Origin: Minisyncoccota bacterium | GTDB taxonomy: Bacteria; Patescibacteriota; Minisyncoccia; Phycocordibacterales; UBA9973 | DNA length: 64,000 nt | Assembly (NCBI GenBank): GCA_041662205.1 | Contig: JBAZSZ010000001.1 | Span: 159,107-223,106 of the forward strand | Direction: 5' to 3' | In this document: one piece after another, positions 7,428-55,123 of the stretch | How the letters are laid out: every line of letters starts with the position of its first letter | Numbering within the stretch: the first letter of the stretch is position 1 | The notes under the pieces: generated by a model | What the model was told of the DNA's origin: nothing | Database searches by the model: none | What the model saw: the letters and a program-made list of their open reading frames with translations, nothing else | Program-made: the position numbers and the translations under genes

Positions 7428-8474
7428 TTATTCCTCAATTTTTGGTTTTTCTACTTCAAGTAGCGCTAGCTCGGGGGAACTGCCGGCTATGCGGAGGACA
7501 TCTTTGTCTATCTTTTTAAGTTCTTTATTTGAAGCATTGTAATGATTCACGACTGTCCCTAAGGCATTGCCAAGTTTGTTGTGGTATTCATCATAAGATT
7601 TTAAATGTTTTCCGAGGTCTTCCACTTTTTTTATTATTTCTTTGGCGGATTCTTCTATTTGGAGAGCCTTGAGCCCTTGCAAGACAGTTTGTAAATATGC
7701 GAGGAAAGAAGTAGGGCTTGTGATGATGACTTTGTATTTTCCGGCGGCACGTTGGATTAGATTCTCATTGTCATCACTTGCACCCACTTTATTGGTAATC
7801 AAATCATAGTAGATGGCTTCGTGGGGGATAAACATAAAAGCAAAGTCGGTAGTGCCTTTGGTCGGCTGGATATATTTAGCTGTTTCAGTAATACGATTCT
7901 TTAAATCATTTACGAAAATTGTTTCTAGTCGTTTCTTTTCTGCACCGTCTCGCTCTTCAACCATTTTATTATAATTTTCCAATGAGAATTTTGAATCTAT
8001 CGGAATGATTTTGTCTTTAACAAAAACGACTGCGTCTACGATCGTGCCATCTGGAAAAGGGTATTGCATTTGGTAGCTTCCTGGTGGAAGCACATTTTTC
8101 AAAACTGTCTCTAAATAATATTCACCTAGGATTCCACGCTGTTTTGGATTCTTTAAAATATTTTCCAAGCTTTGGAGTTGGTCGGCAAAAGAGATGACTT
8201 GTTTATTCGTCTCATCAAGGCGAGTGAGTCTTTCGGTCACATCACGAATTATTTTATTTGATTCAGAAGAGTGGAATTTTAAACTTTCGTTGACTTGTTT
8301 GTGTGATTCACCGATTTTACTATCTACCGTCCTAGAGAGTTCATTTATTTGGGTCAAAATAAGATTTAAGCCGATGTCGTCTTTTGTCGTATTTTCTTTC
8401 TTTTTACCAAATACAAAATAAGCAACAATGCCTCCAATTAAAATCACGATTATAATTATTAAAATATTTTCCAT
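7428..8474 (-). CDS. rmuC: DNA recombination protein RmuC
   Basis: N-terminal TM, long coiled coil and C-terminal RmuC nuclease-like region (YQMQYPFPDGTIVDAVVFV). Confidence 0.8.
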   Translation of the reverse strand: MENILIIIIVILIGGIVAYFVFGKKKENTTKDDIGLNLILTQINELSRTVDSKIGESHKQVNESLKFHSSESNKIIRDVTERLTRLDETNKQVISFADQLQSLENILKNPKQRGILGEYYLETVLKNVLPPGSYQMQYPFPDGTIVDAVVFVKDKIIPIDSKFSLENYNKMVEERDGAEKKRLETIFVNDLKNRITETAKYIQPTKGTTDFAFMFIPHEAIYYDLITNKVGASDDNENLIQRAAGKYKVIITSPTSFLAYLQTVLQGLKALQIEESAKEIIKKVEDLGKHLKSYDEYHNKLGNALGTVVNHYNASNKELKKIDKDVLRIAGSSPELALLEVEKPKIEE

Positions 8475-8480
8475 CTTTTT

Positions 8481-9197
8481 TTATTTTTCTAAATAATGTT
8501 TCAAAGTATAAATCCAATCTTCATCAATGCCTTCGCCGTTTAGCTTTTGGTCTAGTAGCCATTGCAAGTAGCCTCTGTCTATTTTCACCACTTCTTCGAT
8601 TCTTTTGCCATTATGTTTCCCGAATTTAAAAGTATGTAGTAGGGAAGGATGGGAAGAAATTTCCATCATTTTTTTTATGGCTTCATCTTCCCCTATGTTA
8701 TTTTCCTTTACCATTTTATTTTTTAATCTTTCAAATAGTTTTTCTAAAACTAAAACATCTCCCATGGCATCATGCGCTGTCGCATCTACTTCTATGTCGA
8801 GCAGATAGCGCAAATATTGCAGATTGTACCGATCTATTTTTTCCTCTTTGTCTAGATATCTAGCGAGTCTGAGCGTGCAAATGAAATTAGCTGGAAAGAT
8901 GTCTTCTTTTTTTATTATCGCCAAGTCAAAGGGAGCATTGTGAGCGACTACAACAGAATCGTTATCTTCAAAAAGTTTTTTAATTATTGCCTGATCCGTG
9001 CTTTCTTTGAAAGTAGGTTTATTGGCTACCATTTTGTTTGTGATGTGGTGCACCGCTGAAGCTTCGGGAGGTATTTTCATTTCGGGTTTATAGAGACCCA
9101 TAAAGCTTTCATCATTACTTTTATAAGCAATCTGAACTAAGAAATCTTTCTCTGTGTTGCCAGTGGTCTCCGTATCAAAAAAAATTAATTTAGACAT
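8481..9197 (-). CDS. DnaQ-like (DEDD) 3'-5' exonuclease with a C-terminal DUF3820-like domain
   Basis: Exo I motif FFDTETTG. The C-terminal FGKHNGKRIEEV...YLQWLL resembles DUF3820. Confidence 0.75.
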   Translation of the reverse strand: MSKLIFFDTETTGNTEKDFLVQIAYKSNDESFMGLYKPEMKIPPEASAVHHITNKMVANKPTFKESTDQAIIKKLFEDNDSVVVAHNAPFDLAIIKKEDIFPANFICTLRLARYLDKEEKIDRYNLQYLRYLLDIEVDATAHDAMGDVLVLEKLFERLKNKMVKENNIGEDEAIKKMMEISSHPSLLHTFKFGKHNGKRIEEVVKIDRGYLQWLLDQKLNGEGIDEDWIYTLKHYLEK

Positions 9198-9235
9198 AGT
9201 GCTATTTTAACATACTTTTGGTATGATTTAAAAAG

Positions 9236-9330
9236 AAATGTAATTTTTAAAAAGCAATCTATCTGGCGCTGTTGCGCCAGCGAACTGCTCGGCTCGTCAG
9301 CCTGCGCAAGGCTTTTTAAAAACAACATTT
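9236..9330. repeat. GC-rich palindromic intergenic element, copy R1 (core 9257-9312), flanked by imperfect 19-bp inverted repeats
   Basis: The core is identical to copy R2 (17331-17386, opposite orientation) except for compensatory changes in the internal hairpin. The flanking inverted repeats are aaatgtaatttttaaaaag / ctttttaaaaacaacattt. Confidence 0.6.
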
Positions 9331-9344
9331 CTATTTAAATTAAT

Positions 9345-17070: not shown

Positions 17071-17295
17071 ATGAAAAAAGATATTCATCCAAAATATGAT
17101 TTAAAAACAAAAGCCACCTGTGCTTGCGGAGCTGTCTTTGAAGTCGGTTCTACTATGCCAGCCATTGCAATGGAAATCTGCAGTCAGTGCCATCCTTTCT
17201 ATACAGGAAATGAAAAAATAATGGACACCGCAGGACGTGTAGAACGTTTCAAAAAGCGAGCGGCTGCTACTACTAAAACGAAAGTTAAAAAATAA
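17071..17295 (+). CDS. rpmE: Ribosomal protein L31 (zinc-binding type)
   Basis: MKKDIHPKY start with a CxxC...CxxCH zinc-binding pattern. Confidence 0.9.
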
Positions 17296-17429
17296 CAAAA
17301 CAAACTTGTTGCAGGCGTACTTTTTAGAATGCCTTGCGCAGGCTGACGAGCCGAGCAGTTCGCTGGGCTAGCAAGCCCAGATAGATTGCATTATAAAAAG
17401 TATGCCAAGAAAGAGTTTGTTTTGTTATT
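17291..17429. repeat. GC-rich palindromic intergenic element, copy R2 (core 17331-17386), flanked by perfect 16-bp inverted repeats
   Basis: aataacaaaacaaact ... agtttgttttgttatt flank a core that is the reverse complement of R1, with a covarying internal hairpin. Confidence 0.6.
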
Positions 17430-17435
17430 AACCTT

Positions 17436-18416
17436 ATGCCTTTAGACTTAGAAGAACTTAAAAAGAATCACAATACTAGCTACTTGGCTGGTGAGTTAGA
17501 ACGCTTGGCGCGTGAGGAAGCCGAAGTGCGGGAAATGCTCGATAGTGATGAAAGTCTGCATGAAATGGCTGCCAAGGAACTTAAATTTATACAAGAAGAA
17601 AAAGAAAGAATAGAGAAACAGGTACAAGATATTCTTAAAAAAGAAGAAGAGCAAGATAGAGAGGCGAATGAATCACCAAATGAAATAGTGCTGGAGGTGC
17701 GGGCAGGAGCAGGCGGGGACGAAGCTTCACTTTTTGCTTGGGAGCTCGCGCATATGTATGAAAAATTCTCTGAAATACAAGGCTGGCAATGGAGGGTAAA
17801 TTATGAATCTAAAAGTGATTTGAATGGCTACAAAGAAGCGAGTTTTGAAATAAAAGGCAAAGACGTTTTTAAAAAGCTTCGCTATGAGACAGGTGTGCAT
17901 CGAGTGCAGAGAATCCCAGCGACTGAGAAAAATGGCCGAGTGCATACTTCTACTGCTTCTGTGGCAGTACTTCCGATTAGGAAAAAAGTAAATTTTCAAA
18001 TTAATCCAGCTGATTTTGATATGGAATATTCCCGTTCTGGAGGAAAGGGCGGGCAGAATGTGAACAAGGTGGAGACGGCGGTGCGTATTATTCACAAGCC
18101 GACGGGCCTAGATGTGCGTTCCACCAATGAGCGAAGCCAGCTTGCGAATCGGGAAAAAGCGATGATGATTTTGACAGCGAAGCTTCAACAACTAGAAGAA
18201 GAAAAAGAGGCGAGCAAGCATGCTGGTATTCGTAAGGGCCAAATAGGTACTGGTGATCGTTCCGAAAAGATTCGTACTTATAATTTCTCTCAAGACCGTG
18301 TGACGGATCACCGTATCAAGAAATCTTGGCATAATTTACCAAAAATTCTAGAAGGGGGAATAGAGGATATCATTGAATCTATTGAATCTGGCGCAGTGGG
18401 GGATGAGGAAGAGTAA
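17436..18416 (+). CDS. prfA: Peptide chain release factor 1
   Basis: GGQ motif and a PAT (PxT) codon-recognition motif, which marks RF1 rather than RF2. Confidence 0.85.
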   Translation: MPLDLEELKKNHNTSYLAGELERLAREEAEVREMLDSDESLHEMAAKELKFIQEEKERIEKQVQDILKKEEEQDREANESPNEIVLEVRAGAGGDEASLFAWELAHMYEKFSEIQGWQWRVNYESKSDLNGYKEASFEIKGKDVFKKLRYETGVHRVQRIPATEKNGRVHTSTASVAVLPIRKKVNFQINPADFDMEYSRSGGKGGQNVNKVETAVRIIHKPTGLDVRSTNERSQLANREKAMMILTAKLQQLEEEKEASKHAGIRKGQIGTGDRSEKIRTYNFSQDRVTDHRIKKSWHNLPKILEGGIEDIIESIESGAVGDEEE

Positions 18417-18427
18417 TCCAACTTTAC

Positions 18428-18572
18428 AACTGTGAATTACGAAACTTTTTCTTGGCACAGGTTTTCTGTCAGCACACATAAAAATCTACTGATTTTTTGC
18501 TATGCTCGGCGCGCCCGCCTGCGCAATGCTTCCAGAAAACTGCGCCTGCGACAAGTTTCATAATTCACAGTT
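18428..18572. repeat. Inverted-repeat-bounded element with a GC-rich core (R5, related to R1/R2)
   Basis: 18-bp terminal inverted repeats aactgtgaattacgaaac / gtttcataattcacagtt. The core ctcggcgcgcccgcctgcgcaatgc resembles the R1 sequence ctcggctcgtcagcctgcgcaaggc. Confidence 0.5.
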
Positions 18573-18697
18573 CACAAGAAATTGCTTTTGGTTTTAGATG
18601 TGGTATGATTATCAGGTAGAATCTCATCTAGCGAAATAGAGTTTCTACGTTTATAAATAGTTTTTGCCCGATTTTTTAAAACGGGAGAAATATAAGT

Positions 18698-19021
18698 ATG
18701 GCTACAAAGCTATATGTAGGGGGACTCCCTTACAGCACTCAAGAGGATGCTCTTAAAGAGCTCTTCGCACAAGCTGGAAACGTTGTTTCTGCTGTGATTA
18801 TCATGGACAAAATGTCTGGTCGTTCAAAAGGTTTTGGTTTCGTAGAAATGTCATCTCAGGATGAAGCTGGAAAAGCTATTTCTATGTTTAATGATCAAGA
18901 ATTTGAAGGACGAAAACTTACTGTCAACGAAGCTCGCCCTATGGAAGCTCGTCCACCACGTTCAAACGGCGGTGATCGAGGAGGATACGGCAACAATGGA
19001 GGTGGACGCCGAGAATATTAA
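18698..19021 (+). CDS. RRM-domain RNA-binding protein with a Gly-rich tail
   Basis: RNP2 (LYVGGL) and RNP1 (KGFGFVEM) motifs; C-terminal RGG/Gly-rich tail. Confidence 0.8.
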   Translation: MATKLYVGGLPYSTQEDALKELFAQAGNVVSAVIIMDKMSGRSKGFGFVEMSSQDEAGKAISMFNDQEFEGRKLTVNEARPMEARPPRSNGGDRGGYGNNGGGRREY

Positions 19022-19046
19022 TTCTTTTTCTTTTACCTTAAAAACA

Positions 19047-19075
19047 AAAAACCACCGTTATAGGTGGTTTTTTGT
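19047..19075 (+). terminator. Rho-independent terminator
   Basis: accacc-gttata-ggtggt hairpin followed by TTTTTT. Confidence 0.6.
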
Positions 19076-19110
19076 TTGCTCAACTTTTTAAACATAACTT
19101 TTTCCGGTAC

Positions 19111-19158
19111 GGATTTTTTGAAGCTTAAAAAATCCTGAAGTTCTCGGCTCGTCAGCCT
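19111..19158. repeat. 25-bp near-perfect palindrome (ggattttttgaagcttaaaaaatcc) followed by a partial copy of the R-family core (ctcggctcgtcagcct)
   Basis: Seen directly; the 16-nt core segment is identical to part of R1. Confidence 0.4.
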
Positions 19159-19228
19159 CGAAACCCCTCAAAAGTTATGTCCTAAAAAGTTTGCTGAAGT
19201 TAAGATATTTTGTTATAGTTTTTTTATT

Positions 19229-19244
19229 GAGCGTGTAGTTCAGT
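19229..19244 (+). pseudogene. 16-nt 5' fragment of a tRNA-Ile-like gene (GAGCGTGTAGTTCAGT)
   Basis: Identical to the first 16 nt of the 5' half at 19284. Confidence 0.4.
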
Positions 19245-19366: not shown

Positions 19367-19438
19367 GTGTCTGTAGTTCAGTGGTAGAACGCTGTCCTGA
19401 TAAGACAGAGGTCGAAGGTCCGATTCCTTCCAGACACA
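19367..19438 (+). tRNA. tRNA-Ile (anticodon GAU)
   Basis: Complete cloverleaf: acceptor GTGTCTG/CAGACAC, anticodon loop CTGATAA, T-arm GAAGG-TCCGATT-CCTTC. 72 nt, no CCA encoded. Confidence 0.85.
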
Positions 19439-21609: not shown

Positions 21610-23151
21610 ATGCCATCTTTAAACTGGATTGGAAAAGATAAGATTGAGAATCACGACAAAGATGTCGCTTTTCGACTTTTAAAAAAGAATGAGAAGTTGT
21701 CGCTAGGAAAAAGTAGTGAGAATTTGATTGTGGAAGGAGATAACCTCGAGGCATTAAAAGCGTTGATGCCTCATTATGCCGGAAAAGTAAAATGTATTTA
21801 CATTGATCCTCCTTACAACACTGGTAATGAGGGGTGGGTTTATAATGACAAAGTGAATTCTCCTAAAATAAAGGAATGGCTAGGGAGAGCGGTGGGACCA
21901 GAAGGAGAGGATTTAACTCGGCACGATAAATGGCTTTGTATGATGTATCCACGTTTGAAATTATTACGCGACCTACTTCGAGACGATGGTGTGATTTTTA
22001 TTTCCATAGATGATAATGAGCAACATAATCTTAGATTTATCATGGATGAGCTTTTTGGAGAAGAAAATTTTGTGACAAACATTATTTGGCAAAAATCCTT
22101 CTCCCCTATTAATTTAAGGAAAAATTTTTCTAGTAATCATGACTTCATAATCGTATATGCAAGGAATAGAGTTAATTTGAATTTAAATTTATTAGTTCGA
22201 GGAAAAGAAAACAATGAAAGATATAAAAATCTAGACAATGATCCGAGAGGTGCTTGGACATCAAGTGATTTAACTGTGGGACCAATAATTAGAGAAAAAC
22301 TTTATAAAGTTGTTTCTCCTAGTGGAAAAATATTTATTCCTCCGTCAGGACGATGTTGGGTTGTTACAAAAGAAAGATTTGAAGAGTATCAAAAAGAAAA
22401 AAGAATTTGGTGGGGAGAAAAAGGTGATAATATGCCTAGGCAAAAAAGATTTCTTTCGGAAGTGCAACAAGGTATTGTGCCCATGACTATATGGACACAT
22501 CAAGAAGTTGGGCATAACCAGGAAGCAAAGCAAGAGATAAAACAAATACTCAAACAAGAGGTTCCTTTTGAAACTCCCAAACCAACTCGTTTGCTTAAAA
22601 GAATTTTTCAACTTGCAACAAAAGAAAACGACCTAGTCATGGATTCTTTCGTTGGTTCTGGTACAACTGGACAAGCAGTTTTAGAGTTAAATAAAGAAGA
22701 TGGAGGCAATCGCAAGTTTATTTTAGTTGAGTTGGAAGAAAAAATTGCCCGTAAAATTACACAGGAAAGGGTACGTAGAGTAGCAGAGAAAATAGGTGGG
22801 GATTTTGAGTATGTAGCGCTGGGTGATGCACTTTTTGAAAGTTCTGGCGCAATTAATCCAAAAGTGAGTTTTAAAGACCTTGCTTCTTATATTTATTTCA
22901 CGGAAACCCACACCAACATTAATCCAAAGAAAATAAAAGGTAATTTTATTGGCGAATATAATGGACAGGAGTTTTACCTATTATTTAAAGACAAGGATAA
23001 AAACATTTTTAATAGGTCCACTCTTTCCAAGATAGGAAAATCAAAATTGTCTAAAATTGTATATGCAGACAAGTGTTTATTGGACCAAGACATACTTAAC
23101 AAGTGGGGGATCATTTTTAAACAAATTCCTTATTCAGTAAAAACATATTAG
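21610..23151 (+). CDS. mod: Type III restriction-modification methyltransferase (Mod, N6-adenine)
   Basis: DPPY motif (IYIDPPYNTGNEGW) and an FxGxG-like AdoMet region. Immediately followed by res. Confidence 0.85.
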   Translation: MPSLNWIGKDKIENHDKDVAFRLLKKNEKLSLGKSSENLIVEGDNLEALKALMPHYAGKVKCIYIDPPYNTGNEGWVYNDKVNSPKIKEWLGRAVGPEGEDLTRHDKWLCMMYPRLKLLRDLLRDDGVIFISIDDNEQHNLRFIMDELFGEENFVTNIIWQKSFSPINLRKNFSSNHDFIIVYARNRVNLNLNLLVRGKENNERYKNLDNDPRGAWTSSDLTVGPIIREKLYKVVSPSGKIFIPPSGRCWVVTKERFEEYQKEKRIWWGEKGDNMPRQKRFLSEVQQGIVPMTIWTHQEVGHNQEAKQEIKQILKQEVPFETPKPTRLLKRIFQLATKENDLVMDSFVGSGTTGQAVLELNKEDGGNRKFILVELEEKIARKITQERVRRVAEKIGGDFEYVALGDALFESSGAINPKVSFKDLASYIYFTETHTNINPKKIKGNFIGEYNGQEFYLLFKDKDKNIFNRSTLSKIGKSKLSKIVYADKCLLDQDILNKWGIIFKQIPYSVKTY

Positions 23152-23153
23152 TT

Positions 23154-25439
23154 ATGGAACTAAAACGATATCAAAAAGAGGTTATAGATAAGTTTGAGCT
23201 ATTTTTGAAAACGGCAAAATCAATACCGAATAAAAATCAGGCAGCCGCTTTTGCTTTCATGTCTTTAACAAAGGTGCCCTACAAAGAACTCCCAGATGAG
23301 CTCGCTGAGACACCTTTTCTCTGTGTGCAAGTCCCGACAGGAGGCGGAAAAACTTTCATTGCTTCACATATTATAGACAGTGCATATACTCATTTCGAAA
23401 AAACTCAACAAAAGAACGATACGGGCTTAGTTTTGTGGCTTGTGCCTAGCGATGCCATAAGAACTCAGACGCTTCAAAAATTACGAGACAAAAATGATCC
23501 AGTTCGTGAAGTGCTCGATGAACGCTTTAATAATAAAGTTGTAGTTTTAGATATTTTAGAAGCTAGAAGTATTAAGAAAAGTGATATAAGCGAAAACATA
23601 ACTATTGTTGTGGCTACTTTTGCTTCATTTAAAAGGGAAGAAACAGAAGGATTAAAAGTTTTTCAAAATAATGGAGCTTTAATGACTCACTTTGAGAATC
23701 AAACTGAAGATGAAAATCAAAAATATTCTGTGATAGAGGTTATAAAAAAAAATACTCCGTTAGTTATCGTCGACGAAGGGCACAATGCACAAACAAGCCT
23801 TTCCCTCGATATGTTTAAGGATTTAAATCCCTGTATGATTGTAGAATTTACCGCGACACCAAGAAGCTTGAGTAATGTTTTTGTTTCTGTTCCAGCGACT
23901 GAGTTGAAAATGGAGCACATGATTAAGATGCCTATTTTCCTAGAAACCAAGACGATTTGGCAAGATGCTATAAAATTAGCTTATGAAAAAAGGAACGAGT
24001 TAGAAAAAATTTCCCAAAAGCAAACGAAAGATTCCTATATTCGCCCTATTTTGCTTATCCAGGCCGAACAAGAAATTGAATCTCCCACCAGGATATATGT
24101 AGGTAAAGTTCTTGAATATCTTGAACAAGAATTAAAGATTGATCGTAATGAGATAGCTATTCGAACCGGGAAGCAGAATGAAATTGAAAATAAAAACCTT
24201 TTTAGCTTAGAAGTAAAGATTAGATATATCATAACAGTGGATGCATTAAAAGAAGGCTGGGACTGTTCATTTGCATATGTTCTTGCATCAGTGAAGAACC
24301 TTGGGGCTCCCGTTGCTGTAAAGCAATTAATTGGTCGTATACTCCGGTCTCCCTATGCGATCGAACATAAATTTAAAGAGTTCAATCAGGCCTATGTATA
24401 TGCTAGCGCTCCCAATTTTCAAGATGCTGCAAGGTTAGTTATAGATGGTTTGAAAGCAAATGGATACGATATAGATCCAACTAATTTAAATAAAAAAACT
24501 ATTAATACTATAAAAACTGAATATTCCAGAAATAAAAAAGGTGAAGTGAAGCTGCCGTTAATAGCTTTTAATGCCGAAGGCGAGATAAGAGAGCTAGATT
24601 ATAGCGCCGACTTGATTGGAGATGTCTCTATTCTTAATAAGATAAATCCTACAATTGACCTGAGTGGGAGGGAAGATACAGGGGTCGCTCTGATTGATAT
24701 TAATACGAAAGGAGATTTGGTTCGGGAGCAAGCAGAAAATTCATATTCAACAAACGCAGACGTAGAATTTTCCATAGAACAATTAGTTGAATGGTTATTA
24801 AAAAAAATTAGTCGGTCTTTTCTCTCTCTTACAGACATAGAAGAATTTATAGTTAAAGCCGTGAAGTTGCTGATTCCCAAAAAGATTTCTATAAATAATG
24901 CTAACCGAAAACGCTACCTTTTGCTCGAAAGAATCAATGAACTAGTTGATGGGATAGTTAATGAACATACCTATAAACAATTTTTTCAATTTTTAAAAAG
25001 CAAACATATTCTTACGAATTCTAAAGTTGCGTGGGAGGTCGGTAATAAAATTGAATATAATCAAATTATTTCAGGGATAATCTACAATAAACATATTTTT
25101 ACAGGTGTGGGACAGATGAACACTGAAGAACAAAAACTTGCTGATGTAATTAATAGTATCGAATCTGTGGAATGGTGGTTGCGAAATCCTGAACAAAACG
25201 GTTTTTATATACAAGGATGGATGGGTAATAAATTTCGTCCCGATTTTATCGTAAAAACACAAAAAGGAAATTACTTTGTTCTCGAGTATAAAGGTGATCA
25301 ATTGGTGACAAATGATGACAGTAAATACAAAAAAGAATTAGGAGATGTATGGACAAAAATTGCAGGAGAAAAATATCATTTTGAAATGGTGGAAAAAAAT
25401 GAAATAAATTCAATAGCTCAGTTGATTTTAAAAAATTAG
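23154..25439 (+). CDS. res: Type III restriction endonuclease Res subunit (SF2 helicase plus C-terminal PD-(D/E)xK domain)
   Basis: Walker A (VPTGGGKTF), DEGH box (VIVDEGHNAQ) and a C-terminal EYKGD nuclease motif. Begins 3 nt after mod. Confidence 0.85.
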   Translation: MELKRYQKEVIDKFELFLKTAKSIPNKNQAAAFAFMSLTKVPYKELPDELAETPFLCVQVPTGGGKTFIASHIIDSAYTHFEKTQQKNDTGLVLWLVPSDAIRTQTLQKLRDKNDPVREVLDERFNNKVVVLDILEARSIKKSDISENITIVVATFASFKREETEGLKVFQNNGALMTHFENQTEDENQKYSVIEVIKKNTPLVIVDEGHNAQTSLSLDMFKDLNPCMIVEFTATPRSLSNVFVSVPATELKMEHMIKMPIFLETKTIWQDAIKLAYEKRNELEKISQKQTKDSYIRPILLIQAEQEIESPTRIYVGKVLEYLEQELKIDRNEIAIRTGKQNEIENKNLFSLEVKIRYIITVDALKEGWDCSFAYVLASVKNLGAPVAVKQLIGRILRSPYAIEHKFKEFNQAYVYASAPNFQDAARLVIDGLKANGYDIDPTNLNKKTINTIKTEYSRNKKGEVKLPLIAFNAEGEIRELDYSADLIGDVSILNKINPTIDLSGREDTGVALIDINTKGDLVREQAENSYSTNADVEFSIEQLVEWLLKKISRSFLSLTDIEEFIVKAVKLLIPKKISINNANRKRYLLLERINELVDGIVNEHTYKQFFQFLKSKHILTNSKVAWEVGNKIEYNQIISGIIYNKHIFTGVGQMNTEEQKLADVINSIESVEWWLRNPEQNGFYIQGWMGNKFRPDFIVKTQKGNYFVLEYKGDQLVTNDDSKYKKELGDVWTKIAGEKYHFEMVEKNEINSIAQLILKN

Positions 25440-30442: not shown

Positions 30443-30475
30443 GTAATTATTATTTGAAAATTTAAAATAGTTCTT

Positions 30476-30548
30476 GAGAAATGCCTTGCGCAGGCCGACT
30501 GGGCCGAGCAGAGCAAAAATTCAGCAGAATTTTATGTGTGCATTTCGA
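30476..30548. repeat. Divergent copy of the GC-rich element (R3) between atpE and atpF
   Basis: The core gccttgcgcaggccgactgggccgagcag resembles R2's gccttgcgcaggctgacgagccgagcag. Flanked by the inverted repeat gaaatgc/gcatttc. Confidence 0.45.
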
Positions 30549-30581
30549 GAGAAGCTATTTTAAATTTTCAAAAATTACCAC

Positions 30582-33921: not shown

Positions 33922-35322
<1,401 letters not shown>

Positions 35323-35379
35323 AATTTTTTAATATTTACTTTTAAAAACCCGCATAAAATTCTACTGAATTTTTGCTTA

Positions 35380-35400
35380 GACTTCGGCCCGTCGGCCTTC
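35380..35400. repeat. Short GC-rich box (acttcggcccgtcggccttc) related to the R-family core cggcYcgtcRgcc
   Basis: Lies between atpD and atpC; 2 mismatches from the R1 core segment. Confidence 0.35.
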
Positions 35401-35447
35401 GTATGATTTTTAAAAGCAATATTTAAAAATTTTTCAAAAACAATCAT

Positions 35448-54262: not shown

Positions 54263-55123
54263 TTATAAAAGTTTTATTTCACCACTTTCTTCCTTAATCA
54301 ATCCTTTTATTTCCATAATAGATAAAAGGGCATTTGCAGCAGGTGTCGACATTTTAAGAGCGCGAATTAAATCATCTCGAGGTATTGGTTCGCGCAAAAA
54401 ACTTGCAACCTTTTTTTCGTCAGGCAATAGATTAACAAATAATTTAGCTTGCCTCTCTTTATTTTTAGGAAGTTCAAAACCTAATGCTTCTAAGACATCC
54501 TCTGAACAAGTGACGGGTGTGGCTCCTTGATGTAATAATTTATTTACTCCTTTTGAATTTGGAGAAAAAATTGACCCAGGCACCACTAATAAATCTCTGT
54601 TGTATTCTGTTGTGAGCCTAGCTGTGATCAGTGTTCCGGACCTTTCCTCAGCCTCTATAATGAGTACTGCTTTTGAAATACCAGCCATCAGCCTGTTTCT
54701 CATGGGGAAGCTCCAATATGTCGCTTTGAAATCAGGTTCAAATTCTGAAATTAAACATCCGCCATTTTCAACGATTTCATTCATTAGTCTGACGTTCGTT
54801 TTTGGGTACATTGCTTCATCTGATAATCCTGAACCGGGAAAAACTAAAGTCTTGAGTCCTACTTGCATCGCTTTTTTGTGAGCGATAGTATCTATACCCA
54901 TAGCAAAACCGGAAACTATTGCTATAGGGTAGTCTTTCAACCCAGCAATTATTTTTTCACAAGCTTCACGTCCATAAGAGGTGAATTTTCTCGAACCTAC
55001 CACACAGAGATATATCAAATTTTCTTTTGGCAATTCACCGATAATCCAAAGATCTTCCGGTGGCTGGGGAATTTCTAAAAGTGCCTTCGGAAATTTATTT
55101 TTTGGTAATTTTTGAATTTTCAT
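54263..55123 (-). CDS. dprA: DNA processing protein DprA/Smf
   Basis: Rossmann-like core (VVGSRKFTSYG...GFAMGID) with a C-terminal winged-helix-like tail. Confidence 0.8.
   Translation of the reverse strand: MKIQKLPKNKFPKALLEIPQPPEDLWIIGELPKENLIYLCVVGSRKFTSYGREACEKIIAGLKDYPIAIVSGFAMGIDTIAHKKAMQVGLKTLVFPGSGLSDEAMYPKTNVRLMNEIVENGGCLISEFEPDFKATYWSFPMRNRLMAGISKAVLIIEAEERSGTLITARLTTEYNRDLLVVPGSIFSPNSKGVNKLLHQGATPVTCSEDVLEALGFELPKNKERQAKLFVNLLPDEKKVASFLREPIPRDDLIRALKMSTPAANALLSIMEIKGLIKEESGEIKLL

What the first reader, a model, noticed from the sequence alone, without database searches (positions are those of the whole stretch)
18428..18572. 145-bp element with 18-bp terminal inverted repeats and a GC-rich core between prfA and the RRM-protein gene
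aactgtgaattacgaaac (18428-18445) and gtttcataattcacagtt (18555-18572) are near-perfect reverse complements. They enclose ctcggcgcgcccgcctgcgcaatgc...ctgcgcctgcgacaag, which is related to the R-family core. This could be a MITE-like insertion, or a long-stem structured RNA in the 5' leader of the RNA-binding protein gene, for example an autoregulatory site.
Basis: seen in the sequence. Interest (0 to 1): 0.5.

Follow-up and report, generated by a model that had tools for sequence, protein, structure and literature searches.

The report
Palindromic repeat element inserted after prfA
The 145-bp hairpin is a recently inserted copy of a palindromic repeat family that is widespread in Parcubacteria-type (CPR) genomes and also sits in frame inside essential genes, much like the Rickettsia palindromic elements; it is not part of the RNA-binding-protein gene's leader.

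Summary
Window 18428-18572 is a 145-bp imperfect palindrome with 17/18-complementary outer arms and a GC-rich centre.

It is not the RRM-gene leader. Seven close relatives have the prfA stop codon followed within 1-15 nt by a conserved promoter-like block and leader. That block lies downstream of the element (from 18582).

The element is one of six copies in this window. An exact-pattern scan found at least 118 further loci, almost all in Patescibacteria/CPR.

All copies share a three-way architecture:
- a long closing stem whose ends differ in every copy;
- hairpin H1, in two interchangeable types;
- a GC-rich hairpin H2.

Helices covary almost only through Watson-Crick pairs. Copies show no orientation bias to genes, no shared termini and no target-site duplication, and no transposase lies nearby.

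About a fifth of copies sit in frame inside TsaD, UvrD, IscS-like, Fmt and KsgA genes.

Best reading: a DNA-level, non-autonomous palindromic element analogous to Rickettsia palindromic elements. Its conserved centre spreads, and the flanking DNA becomes palindromic. The spreading mechanism is inferred, not shown.

The parts
18428..18572 (+). The finding: a complete 145-bp palindromic element. The strand given is that of the family core pattern.
   Evidence: The covariance model scores the centre (18455-18549) at 81.7 bits, E 1.6e-18. The element is absent from the orthologous spacer in L123, L124, L125, L126, L129, L135 and L155.
18428..18445 (+). Outer left arm, specific to this copy. It pairs with 18555-18572.
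   Evidence: 17/18 complementary, and no other occurrence in the window.
18555..18572 (+). Outer right arm, specific to this copy.
18446..18474 (+). Inner left arm. It contains the subfamily-conserved, non-complementary block TTTTTCTTGGCAC, which lies opposite GCGCCTGCGACAAG.
   Evidence: One search gives the arm alignment. The same block...CTTTCTTGGCATAC.../...GTACGCCTGCGAC..., appears in L011, L047, L049, L083, L085, L089, L107, L110 and L119.
18480..18497 (+). Hairpin H1, type 2: aaaaatc-tact-gattttt.
   Evidence: Model alignment. Among 71 copies, 12-24 carry a both-sided change at each of the middle five of the seven pairs (1 and 8 at the end pairs), and there is a single G-U.
18503..18525 (+). 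GC-rich hairpin H2, tgctcggcGcgccCgcctgcgca. The innermost pair here is G-C.
   Evidence: That pair is UA 45 / CG 23 / GC 2 in type-2 copies and UA 21 / GC 15 / CG 9 in type-1 copies.
18527..18554 (+). Inner right arm. Its CGCCTGCGAC is a direct repeat of the core's CGCCTGCGCA.
   Evidence: (direct repeat D1).
17291..17429 (-). Sister copy (type-1 H1) filling the rpmE-prfA spacer. Its left end overlaps the rpmE stop codon.
   Evidence: (68.8 bits).
19082..19191 (+). Degenerate sister copy between the RRM-gene terminator and a tRNA gene.
   Evidence: (29.5 bits, E 6e-5). Model hits (28.8 and 24.6 bits) in L147 and L180 lie inside the stretches that one search aligns with window 18571-19244, so this copy appears to be conserved there.
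9226..9340 (+). Sister copy (type-1 H1) between divergent genes.
   Evidence: (77 bits).
30453..30572 (-). Sister copy (type-2 H1) inside the ATP synthase operon, just upstream of the b-subunit gene.
   Evidence: (90 bits).
35321..35433 (+). Sister copy (type-2 H1, divergent H2) between the ATP synthase beta and epsilon genes. It overlaps the beta stop codon.
   Evidence: (60.5 bits).
18582..18609 (+). Not part of the element. This is the conserved promoter-like block of the RRM gene: TTGCTT, 16 nt, TG-n-TATGAT.
   Evidence: Conserved in the alignments and in the 58 loci. The strict sigma-70 consensus scan does not report it.
18616..18687 (+). Not part of the element. This is the conserved RRM-gene leader: hairpin GTAG..CTAC at 18616-18648, and hairpin CCCG/CGGG at 18667-18685 overlapping the Shine-Dalgarno sequence.
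   Evidence: (I11). The covariation includes G-U pairs.

Best explanation
The 145-bp hairpin is a copy of an interspersed, non-autonomous palindromic DNA element. It inserted between the prfA stop codon and the RRM-gene promoter in this lineage only. It plays no part in the RRM leader.

The family has a conserved centre of about 60-75 nt. The centre holds hairpin H1 (type 1 or type 2, loop TGCT/AGCT), a short junction, and the GC-rich hairpin H2 (TGCTCGGC-N6-GCCTGCGCAAKGC). It is closed by inverted arms of about 30 nt. The inner parts of the arms are conserved within subfamilies. The ends are unique to each copy.

The element acts at the DNA level as selfish or neutral DNA. It is tolerated between genes, between cistrons of one operon, and in frame inside surface loops of essential proteins.

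Inferred mechanism (not shown). The conserved centre is the unit that spreads and is exchanged between sites, by gene conversion or by an unidentified trans-acting enzyme. The flanking DNA is then made and kept complementary by intra-strand template switching at the hairpin (quasi-palindrome correction). That would explain copy-specific but near-perfect arms, Watson-Crick-only covariation and the absence of target-site duplications. Recombination between the arms flips the centre.

At this locus the likely consequence is a long hairpin in any prfA read-through transcript. No effect on RRM-gene regulation is expected.
For: Shown by tool results:
- Empty sites. L123 (95% RF1 identity), L124, L125, L126, L129, L135 and L155 have 1-15 nt between the prfA stop and the conserved TTGC..TATGAT block. 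The window has about 165 nt.
- Family membership. There are six copies in the window. The model gives 118 hits in 754 kb of those loci.
- Architecture. The P1-H1-H2 junction is recovered independently for type-2 (71 sequences) and type-1 (46 sequences).
- DNA rather than RNA. My tally of the pair tables gives 322 alternative Watson-Crick pairs against 6 G-U. GC<->CG and AU<->UA flips are the commonest change. The RRM leader hairpin in the same locus does show G-U (10 and 4 of 36). Between co-directional genes, intergenic copies are co-oriented 28 times and anti-oriented 18 times; 24 lie between convergent and 18 between divergent genes. Outer arms carry more transversions than transitions and show no G-U excess.
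- Coding copies. Copies are read through in frame in TsaD and UvrD. Of 121 copies, 27 lie in long open frames, and all six frames are used.
- Not classical transposition. Median length is 117 bp, termini are unique per copy, and flanking direct repeats are 0-1 nt in 104 of 116 copies. None of 60 window proteins scanned is a transposase or integrase. L103 has five model hits (897, 1858, 3499, 5980, 6147) in 8 kb, among ORFs that from their translations look like ssb, efp, recA and ftsK (my reading; not scanned).
- Flanks made palindromic. In TsaD, removing the 70-72-nt centre leaves 90-92 nt, against 87 nt in empty alleles. The perfect 19-23-bp arms therefore occupy host positions. Arm sequence follows host codon choice: EAR as GAAGCCAGA pairs with SGF, and EAR as GAAGCTCGG pairs with PSF.
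- Centre exchange and inversion. At orthologous sites the centre is inverted and/or carries the other H1 type.
Against: - No mobility enzyme, donor copy or within-population presence/absence polymorphism was found, so present-day mobility is unproven.
- At the finding's own site the gain over empty sites (at least 152 nt) is larger than the whole palindrome. Here both arms look imported rather than made from local flanks. This differs from the TsaD case.
- The centre is strongly conserved across many species, which could mean a host function rather than selfishness.
- Mismatches are strand-asymmetric. A-C on the pattern strand outnumbers G-T by 17 to 6 in core helices and by 55 to 15 in arms. 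All six window copies fold better on the strand opposite the pattern. This hints at a strand-specific single-stranded intermediate or an RNA.
- The invariance of H2 is partly circular, because the copies were retrieved with an exact H2 pattern.
Confidence: 0.72

Rival explanations
1. The element is a cis-regulatory structured RNA in the 5' leader of the RRM-protein gene, for example an autoregulatory binding site.
For: It lies upstream of the RRM gene on the same strand. It folds with z -7.5.
Against: It is absent from all 57 other RRM-gene upstream regions collected and from the seven closest relatives. The conserved promoter-like block and the truly conserved leader hairpins begin downstream, at 18582. 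Sister copies occur next to unrelated genes in both orientations.
Confidence: 0.03
2. The element is a domesticated, functional host element. The conserved centre would be a binding site for a host protein (nucleoid organisation, recombination or replication), or the hairpin would act on RNA as a processing or stabilising signal. The family would then be kept by selection rather than by selfish spread.
For: Near-identical centre sequences occur in many species of several candidate orders. Non-complementary blocks inside the arms are conserved, for example CTTTCTTGGCA opposite CGCCTGCGAC, and GCCTGCG is repeated. Copies sit between cistrons of the ATP synthase operon, where they must be transcribed.
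Against: Presence at a given site is patchy among close relatives. Both orientations occur at the same site. Copies interrupt essential coding sequences in all six frames. Unrelated palindromic families occupy the same spacers and the same TsaD loop. All of this fits opportunistic insertion better than a site-specific function.
Confidence: 0.13
3. The element is a non-autonomous derivative of a single-strand DNA transposon system (IS200/IS605-type PATE, or REPIN/RAYT-like). A HUH tyrosine transposase encoded elsewhere in the genome would recognise hairpins H1/H2 on one strand and mobilise it.
For: Covarying hairpins with conserved loops are what such enzymes recognise. There are no terminal inverted repeats shared between copies and no target-site duplication. 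Mismatches are strand-asymmetric, favouring pairing on one strand. The H2 loop is often CGTC, and this copy is preceded by TTAC; both are only suggestive.
Against: No such gene was found in the 64-kb window, and none was apparent among the L103 ORFs as I read their translations (not scanned). The elements are long whole-length palindromes with a conserved centre, not two different subterminal hairpins. The ends, where cleavage would occur, are not conserved. Orientation relative to genes is unbiased.
Confidence: 0.1
4. The elements are a family of small RNA genes transcribed from the strand opposite the pattern.
For: That strand folds better in 96 of 116 copies and in all six window copies.
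Against: There is no Rfam match and no promoter-like site in the element. Helices show almost no G-U. Many copies lie inside coding sequences, and they are read in frame on either strand.
Confidence: 0.02

Closest known systems
Rickettsia palindromic elements (RPE; Ogata et al. 2000, 2002, as summarised in PMC10969869)
   Same: Both are repeats of about 100-150 bp that fold as long hairpins. Both fall into several families within small, reduced genomes. Both occur in intergenic DNA and, unusually often, in frame inside unrelated housekeeping genes, where they add a peptide segment. Neither has an associated transposase.
   Different: The host is a different phylum (Patescibacteria/CPR), and I did not compare sequences with RPE consensi. 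Here the conserved part is the centre and the ends are unique to each copy. H1 modules are interchangeable. One loop of TsaD carries inserts in 106 of 120 homologs, from at least 8 peptide families, some in tandem.
Bacterial MITEs (e.g. Correia/NEMIS, RUP, Nezha)
   Same: Both are short, non-coding, multi-copy, hairpin-forming and scattered between genes.
   Different: MITEs have terminal inverted repeats shared by all copies, matching a parent IS, and flanking target-site duplications. Neither feature is present here.
ERIC/IRU and BOX elements
   Same: All are imperfect palindromes of about 120 bp, conserved across species, built from modules, of unknown mobility, and often co-transcribed with neighbouring genes.
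   Different: Those elements are rarely in frame in genes on this scale. They belong to other taxa, and the comparison rests on my own knowledge of them, not on a sequence test. BOX modules vary by copy number rather than by swapping a hairpin.
REP/REPIN-RAYT systems (PMC3733652)
   Same: Both involve GC-rich hairpins with compensatory changes and long hairpins made of inverted units. A CGTC motif is frequent in the H2 loop.
   Different: REPs are 20-40 bp with a GTAG/CGTC tag at the 5' foot, and they co-occur with a RAYT gene. Here the CG(T/A/C)C is in the loop, the unit is about 117 bp with an asymmetric centre, and no RAYT was seen.
Quasi-palindrome correction by intra-strand template switching (Ripley model; cited from my own knowledge)
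   Same: It predicts that a change in one arm is copied to the other. That gives Watson-Crick-only covariation with no wobble intermediates, symmetric indels and outward growth of palindromes, all of which are seen here.
   Different: It is a mutational process, not an element family. It does not explain why the centre is conserved or how new sites are colonised.

Membership tests
Paceibacteria palindromic element family defined here | Core H2 motif TGCTCGGC-N6-GCCTGCGCAA(G/T)GC | tested here: met
   There is an exact match at 18503-18529 (pattern, 41).
Paceibacteria palindromic element family defined here | H1 hairpin with loop TRCT, flanked by ACATA and TTTGCT, 5 nt upstream of H2 | tested here: met
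   Positions 18475-18502 fit. The covariance model scores the centre at 81.7 bits, E 1.6e-18.
Paceibacteria palindromic element family defined here | Centre enclosed by inverted arms of about 30 nt or more | tested here: met
   The arms are 47 nt with 37 matches. The family median arm is 30 nt and the median element is 117 bp.
Classical MITE | Terminal inverted repeats with the same sequence in all copies | tested here: not met
   The outermost 14 nt differ in every one of 116 copies. The arm of this copy has no other match in the window.
Classical MITE | Target-site duplication flanking the element | tested here: not met
   Flanking direct repeats are 0-1 nt in 104 of 116 copies, and the longest is 4 nt.
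Classical MITE | Parent insertion sequence with matching ends and a transposase | tested here: inconclusive
   None was found among 60 window proteins, and none was apparent in the L103 ORF translations as I read them. Whole genomes were not searched.
Rickettsia palindromic elements | Palindromic repeat of about 100-150 bp forming a stable hairpin | tested here: met
Rickettsia palindromic elements | Frequent in-frame insertion in unrelated protein-coding genes | tested here: met
   This is met for the family, not for this copy. Of 121 copies, 27 lie in long open frames. Hosts include TsaD, UvrD, and genes that look like IscS, Fmt and KsgA.
Rickettsia palindromic elements | Sequence membership in RPE families 1-10 of the genus Rickettsia | not tested
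   No RPE consensus was available, and the hosts here are Patescibacteria. I treat the family as an analogue, not a member.
REP/REPIN-RAYT | GC-rich palindrome of 20-40 bp with a GTAG or CGTC tag at its 5' foot | tested here: not met
   In H2 the CG(T/A/C)C is the loop, not a 5' tag.
REP/REPIN-RAYT | Cognate RAYT (Y1 transposase) gene in the genome | not testable with these tools
   Only a 64-kb window and 8-kb loci were available. None was seen in the window.
Cis-regulatory leader RNA of the RRM gene | Lies within the transcript and is conserved in orthologous leaders | tested here: not met
   It is absent from 57 other RRM upstream regions and lies upstream of the conserved promoter-like block.
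Cis-regulatory leader RNA of the RRM gene | RNA-type covariation (G-U tolerated) and fixed orientation to the gene | tested here: not met
   There are 6 G-U against 322 alternative Watson-Crick pairs. There is no orientation bias.
Any Rfam family | Match to a curated covariance model | tested here: not met
   Only tRNAs pass the gathering threshold in the window. The best hit in 18300-18720 has E 7.3, to an unrelated snoRNA.
Intrinsic terminator | GC-rich hairpin immediately followed by a T run | tested here: not met
   No terminator-like site was reported at 18428-18590. The hairpin is followed by cacaagaaattgc. Two sister copies lie inside the ATP synthase operon.

The most novel reading that the evidence does not exclude
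The family, and several unrelated families that share its insertion sites, may represent a transposase-free way for DNA to spread. In this reading a conserved hairpin centre colonises and replaces the tips of existing hairpins through break repair or template switching. It then rewrites the neighbouring host DNA into its own stem, including codons of essential proteins such as TsaD. Palindromic elements would then be a major, so far undescribed source of protein-loop variation and genome structure across the Candidate Phyla Radiation.
Probability: 0.25. Interest if true: 0.85.

Novelty: new variant of a known kind. Interest (0 to 1): 0.6.

Why it matters
Frequent in-frame palindromic insertions in housekeeping genes have so far been described mainly for Rickettsia. 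The title of the 2002 paper even calls them unique to that genus.

The same phenomenon, on a larger scale, now appears in free-living or episymbiotic ultra-small CPR bacteria. This suggests it is a general outcome of reduced genomes rather than a rickettsial oddity.

The family has practical and experimental uses:
- It gives a tractable system for asking how such elements move without a transposase. There are many species, many orthologous filled and empty sites, interchangeable modules and copy-specific arms.
- It warns annotators that CPR intergenic hairpins and odd protein loops may be repeat-derived.
- It supplies markers for strain-level population studies.

I found no paper describing it in the searchable library. 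That library is incomplete.

Tried and rejected
- Rfam, at gathering threshold on the whole window and at E up to 10 on 18300-18720, gave nothing relevant.
- Exact-protein look-up of this RF1 found no record. The RRM protein was found, but in contigs with a different upstream gene.
- Searching protein databases with the element-encoded peptide failed. One query was too short. A 41-aa query gave only two small spurious ORFs. The full HMMER scan with one of them gave five hits, two of them unrelated repeat proteins. The number of host protein families therefore rests on the DNA-based sample only.
- The consensus promoter/terminator scan shows nothing inside the element. It also misses the conserved RRM promoter-like block, because its -35 matches only 3 of 6 positions.
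- The test for target-site duplication was negative.
- Pfam scans of 60 of the 62 window ORFs of at least 100 aa found no transposase, integrase or HUH protein.
- The idea that one arm is always the original flank (an inverted target duplication) fits TsaD and UvrD. It does not fit this locus, where the gain exceeds the palindrome length.
- Readings as an integron attC site, a ribozyme, a retron or a DNA-uptake sequence were considered from memory and dropped. The context is housekeeping genes. The conserved part is central rather than terminal. There is no reverse transcriptase or integrase nearby. Copy density, about 1 per 10 kb, is too low for an uptake sequence.
- The 2002 RPE paper (PMC186582) is not held in the library.

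Full report
**Observation.** They are complementary at 17 of 18 positions. With up to three mismatches the arm sequence occurs nowhere else in the 64-kb window, against 0.08 matches expected by chance. The inverted repeat is much longer than 18 nt. One search reports 37-nt arms, and a local alignment gives 47-nt arms with 37 matches spanning all of 18428-18572. As single strands, the + strand folds at -55.1 kcal/mol (z -7.5) and the - strand at -72.6 kcal/mol (z -8.6). The GC-rich centre is indeed related to other repeats in the window.

**Context.** The window has 35% G+C. Its DNA aligns best, at about 84% identity, to a locus from a Candidatus Paceibacterota genome (L044). I therefore take it to be an uncultured member of the Patescibacteria/CPR.

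The local gene order is as follows (terminator read from the sequence):

| Feature | Coordinates |
|---|---|
| L31 (rpmE) | 17071-17295 |
| RF1 (prfA; PCRF and RF-1 domains) | 17436-18416 |
| the element | 18428-18572 |
| RRM_1 protein gene | 18698-19021 |
| classical terminator | about 19040-19075 |
| tRNA | 19367-19438 |

**It is not the RRM-gene leader.**
- Contigs that encode the identical RRM protein behind a different upstream gene share only the sequence from about 18582 onward with the window.
- Among 80 metagenomic loci with RF1 homologs, seven close ones keep the prfA-RRM gene order. These are L123 (95% amino-acid identity), L124, L125, L126, L129, L135 and L155. In all seven the prfA stop codon is followed within 1-15 nt by a conserved block, TTGC(T/A)TTT, about 16 nt, then TG-n-TATGAT. 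The conserved leader follows. None has the element.
- In the window this block is at 18582-18609.
- The same block and leader recur in 58 distinct loci. The leader has a GTAG..CTAC hairpin at 18616-18648. It also has a hairpin that overlaps the Shine-Dalgarno sequence (18667-18685), which covaries and includes G-U pairs.
- A structured leader therefore exists, but it lies downstream of the element. The element is a lineage-specific insertion of about 150-165 nt.

**It belongs to a large family.**
Almost all are Patescibacteria: Nomurabacteria, Zambryskibacteria, Paceibacterota and Parcubacteria. Two are evident chance hits in GC-rich DNA.
- A covariance model built from 71 copies finds six copies in the window, about one per 10 kb:

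| Model hit | Strand | Bits |
|---|---|---|
| 30463-30558 | - | 90 |
| 18455-18549 (the finding) | + | 81.7 |
| 9237-9332 | + | 77 |
| 17311-17406 | - | 68.8 |
| 35331-35426 | + | 60.5 |
| 19090-19184 (degenerate) | + | 29.5 |

- The same model gives 118 hits in 754 kb of the retrieved loci. One 8-kb stretch (L103) has five hits, among ORFs that from their translations look like ssb, efp, recA and ftsK (my reading; not scanned).

**Architecture.** RNAalifold recovers the same three-way junction from the 71 type-2 copies and, separately, from 46 type-1 copies.
- A closing stem, P1.
- Hairpin H1, which comes in two unrelated versions. Type 2 is ACATAA-stem-TGCT-stem-TTTGCT, as in the finding. 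Type 1 is AATCTATCT-stem-(T/A)GCT-stem-AGCGAAC.
- The GC-rich hairpin H2.
- In each H1, the middle five of the seven pairs carry both-sided changes in 12-24 sequences (the end pairs in 0-8). The innermost H2 pair switches among U-A, C-G and G-C.
- The median element is 117 bp (interquartile range 112-123, range 85-186), with arms of about 30 nt. At 145 bp the finding is a long copy.
- The inner parts of the arms define subfamilies and contain conserved non-complementary blocks. The finding and the copy at 17291-17429 carry ..CTTTCTTGGCA.. opposite ..CGCCTGCGAC...
- The outermost 10-20 bp are unique to each copy.

**DNA level, not RNA level.**
- My tally of the pair tables gives 322 alternative Watson-Crick pairs. 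Of these, 161 are GC<->CG or AU<->UA flips. There are only 6 G-U pairs, 17 A-C pairs and about 10 other mismatches. An RNA under structural selection normally shows many G-U intermediates, as the RRM leader hairpin does.
- In the variable outer arms, transversion mismatches outnumber transitions. There is no excess of G-U on either strand.
- Intergenic copies lie between co-directional genes in either orientation (28 co-oriented, 18 anti-oriented). They also lie between convergent (24) and divergent (18) genes.
- Two window copies lie between cistrons of the ATP synthase operon, in opposite orientations. They cannot be strong terminators.
- No Rfam family matches. No promoter-like or terminator-like site lies in the element.

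**Copies inside genes.**
- Of 121 genuine copies, 27 lie in open frames of at least 150 codons. All six reading frames are used. The commonest gives ..SIAQA(D/V/G)EPSIANFQQKIM...
- Complete TsaD and UvrD proteins read through the element, and their Pfam domains span it.
- From the flanking translations, other hosts look like IscS/NifS, Fmt, KsgA and a phosphomannomutase (my reading, not scanned).
- TsaD carries the element at one loop in many species and in both orientations.

This is the behaviour described for Rickettsia palindromic elements (PMC10969869, citing Ogata et al. 2000 and 2002).

**How copies arise: what is shown and what is inferred.**

*Shown:*
- Termini are copy-specific, and there is no target-site duplication (0-1 nt in 104 of 116 copies).
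- No transposase, integrase or HUH protein was found among 60 of the 62 window ORFs of at least 100 aa.
- In TsaD, an empty allele (L204) is 87 nt between YPGGP and PRPM and is not palindromic. Filled alleles (L015, L118) have perfect or near-perfect 19-23-bp arms around a 70-72-nt centre. Removing only the centre leaves 90-92 nt. The arms therefore occupy host positions.
- The left arm encodes the conserved host residues E-A-R. Where Arg is AGA the right arm reads S-G-F. Where Arg is CGG it reads P-S-F. Complementarity is kept at the cost of the protein sequence on the other side.
- A third allele (L203) is a 40-nt hairpin of empty-site length. It looks like a remnant left after loss of the centre.
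- Orthologous copies differ by symmetric changes in both arms (window 9226-9340 against L079; the atpD-atpC copies in the window, L020, L034 and L038).
- At orthologous sites the centre can be inverted and can carry the other H1 type. Window 30453-30572 is inverted and type 2, whereas L044 and L054 are type 1. The rpmE-prfA spacer holds copies in either orientation in different relatives.

*Inferred:*
- The conserved centre is the unit that spreads or is exchanged.
- The arms are made and kept complementary by intra-strand template switching at the hairpin.
- Recombination between the arms inverts the centre.

This model does not fit every observation. At the finding's own site the gain (at least 152 nt) exceeds the palindrome, so here the arms look imported.

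**Unexplained.**
- The centre is nearly invariant across many species. Part of that is circular, because copies were retrieved with an exact H2 pattern. Model-detected variants, such as the copies at 30463 and 35331, do differ.
- Mismatches favour pairing on the strand opposite the pattern. This could point to a strand-specific single-stranded DNA intermediate.

**Comparison with known systems.**
- The element works like a Rickettsia palindromic element but is not a member of those families by host. Sequence relatedness was not tested.
- It fails two defining tests for a classical MITE: shared terminal repeats and target-site duplication.
- It is not REP-like in size or tag position.
- It shares modularity and cross-species conservation with ERIC and BOX elements.
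- I found no description of such elements in CPR bacteria in the searchable literature.

**Verdict.** The 'insertion' reading is supported and the 'leader RNA' reading is rejected. The element is a new variant of a known kind of selfish palindromic DNA, in a phylum where it has apparently not been described. Its unusual features are a conserved centre, copy-specific arms, interchangeable modules and massive in-frame colonisation of an essential-protein loop.

Noticed in passing
window 18582-18697: The RRM-protein gene has a promoter-like block (TTGCTT, 16 nt, TG-n-TATGAT) and a leader of about 85 nt. The leader has two hairpins: 18616-18648, and 18667-18685 overlapping the Shine-Dalgarno sequence. 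Both block and leader are conserved in 58 loci, with RNA-type covariation. There is no Rfam match. This, not the 145-bp element, is the candidate autoregulatory or cold-shock-type leader.
   Followed up: partly
TsaD homologs P0001-P0120; loci L015, L036, L050, L104, L118, L203, L204: The loop between YPGGPxISKLAExxR and F.LPRPM of TsaD carries 24-68 extra residues in 106 of the 120 closest homologs. The inserts come from at least 8 different peptide families, presumably different palindromic element families or frames. Six proteins have two inserts in tandem. Only about 14 are of empty-site length.
   Followed up: partly
L123 2405-2490; L138 and L145 downstream of prfA; L123 2058-2140: Unrelated long-hairpin elements with other GC-rich centres (e.g. 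CCCTTCTCGG-ATTACCGAGTGGGACCC) occupy the same rpmE-prfA and prfA-RRM spacers in relatives. Several palindromic families therefore compete for the same sites.
   Followed up: no
window 30453-30572 and 35321-35433: Two family copies lie between cistrons of the ATP synthase operon, in opposite orientations. The second overlaps the stop codon of the beta-subunit gene. The copy at 17291-17429 likewise overlaps the rpmE stop codon.
   Followed up: partly
L001-L004 versus window 18698-19021: The identical 107-aa RRM protein is encoded in four metagenomic contigs. There it follows an isopropylmalate/isocitrate dehydrogenase-type gene and a terminator instead of prfA. The protein is conserved although the gene order differs.
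   Followed up: no
window 7428-9194, 21610-25436, 54263-55120: An RmuC-family gene and an ExoX-like exonuclease gene lie next to the copy at 9226-9340. From memory, RmuC limits inversion at short inverted repeats in E. coli. The window also holds a type III restriction-modification pair and DprA. No link to the elements was tested.
   Followed up: no
all family copies; window copies: Folding is consistently more stable on the strand opposite the core pattern: 96 of 116 copies, and all six in the window. A-C mismatches outnumber G-T mismatches on the pattern strand. This is unexplained for an element with no orientation bias to genes.
   Followed up: partly
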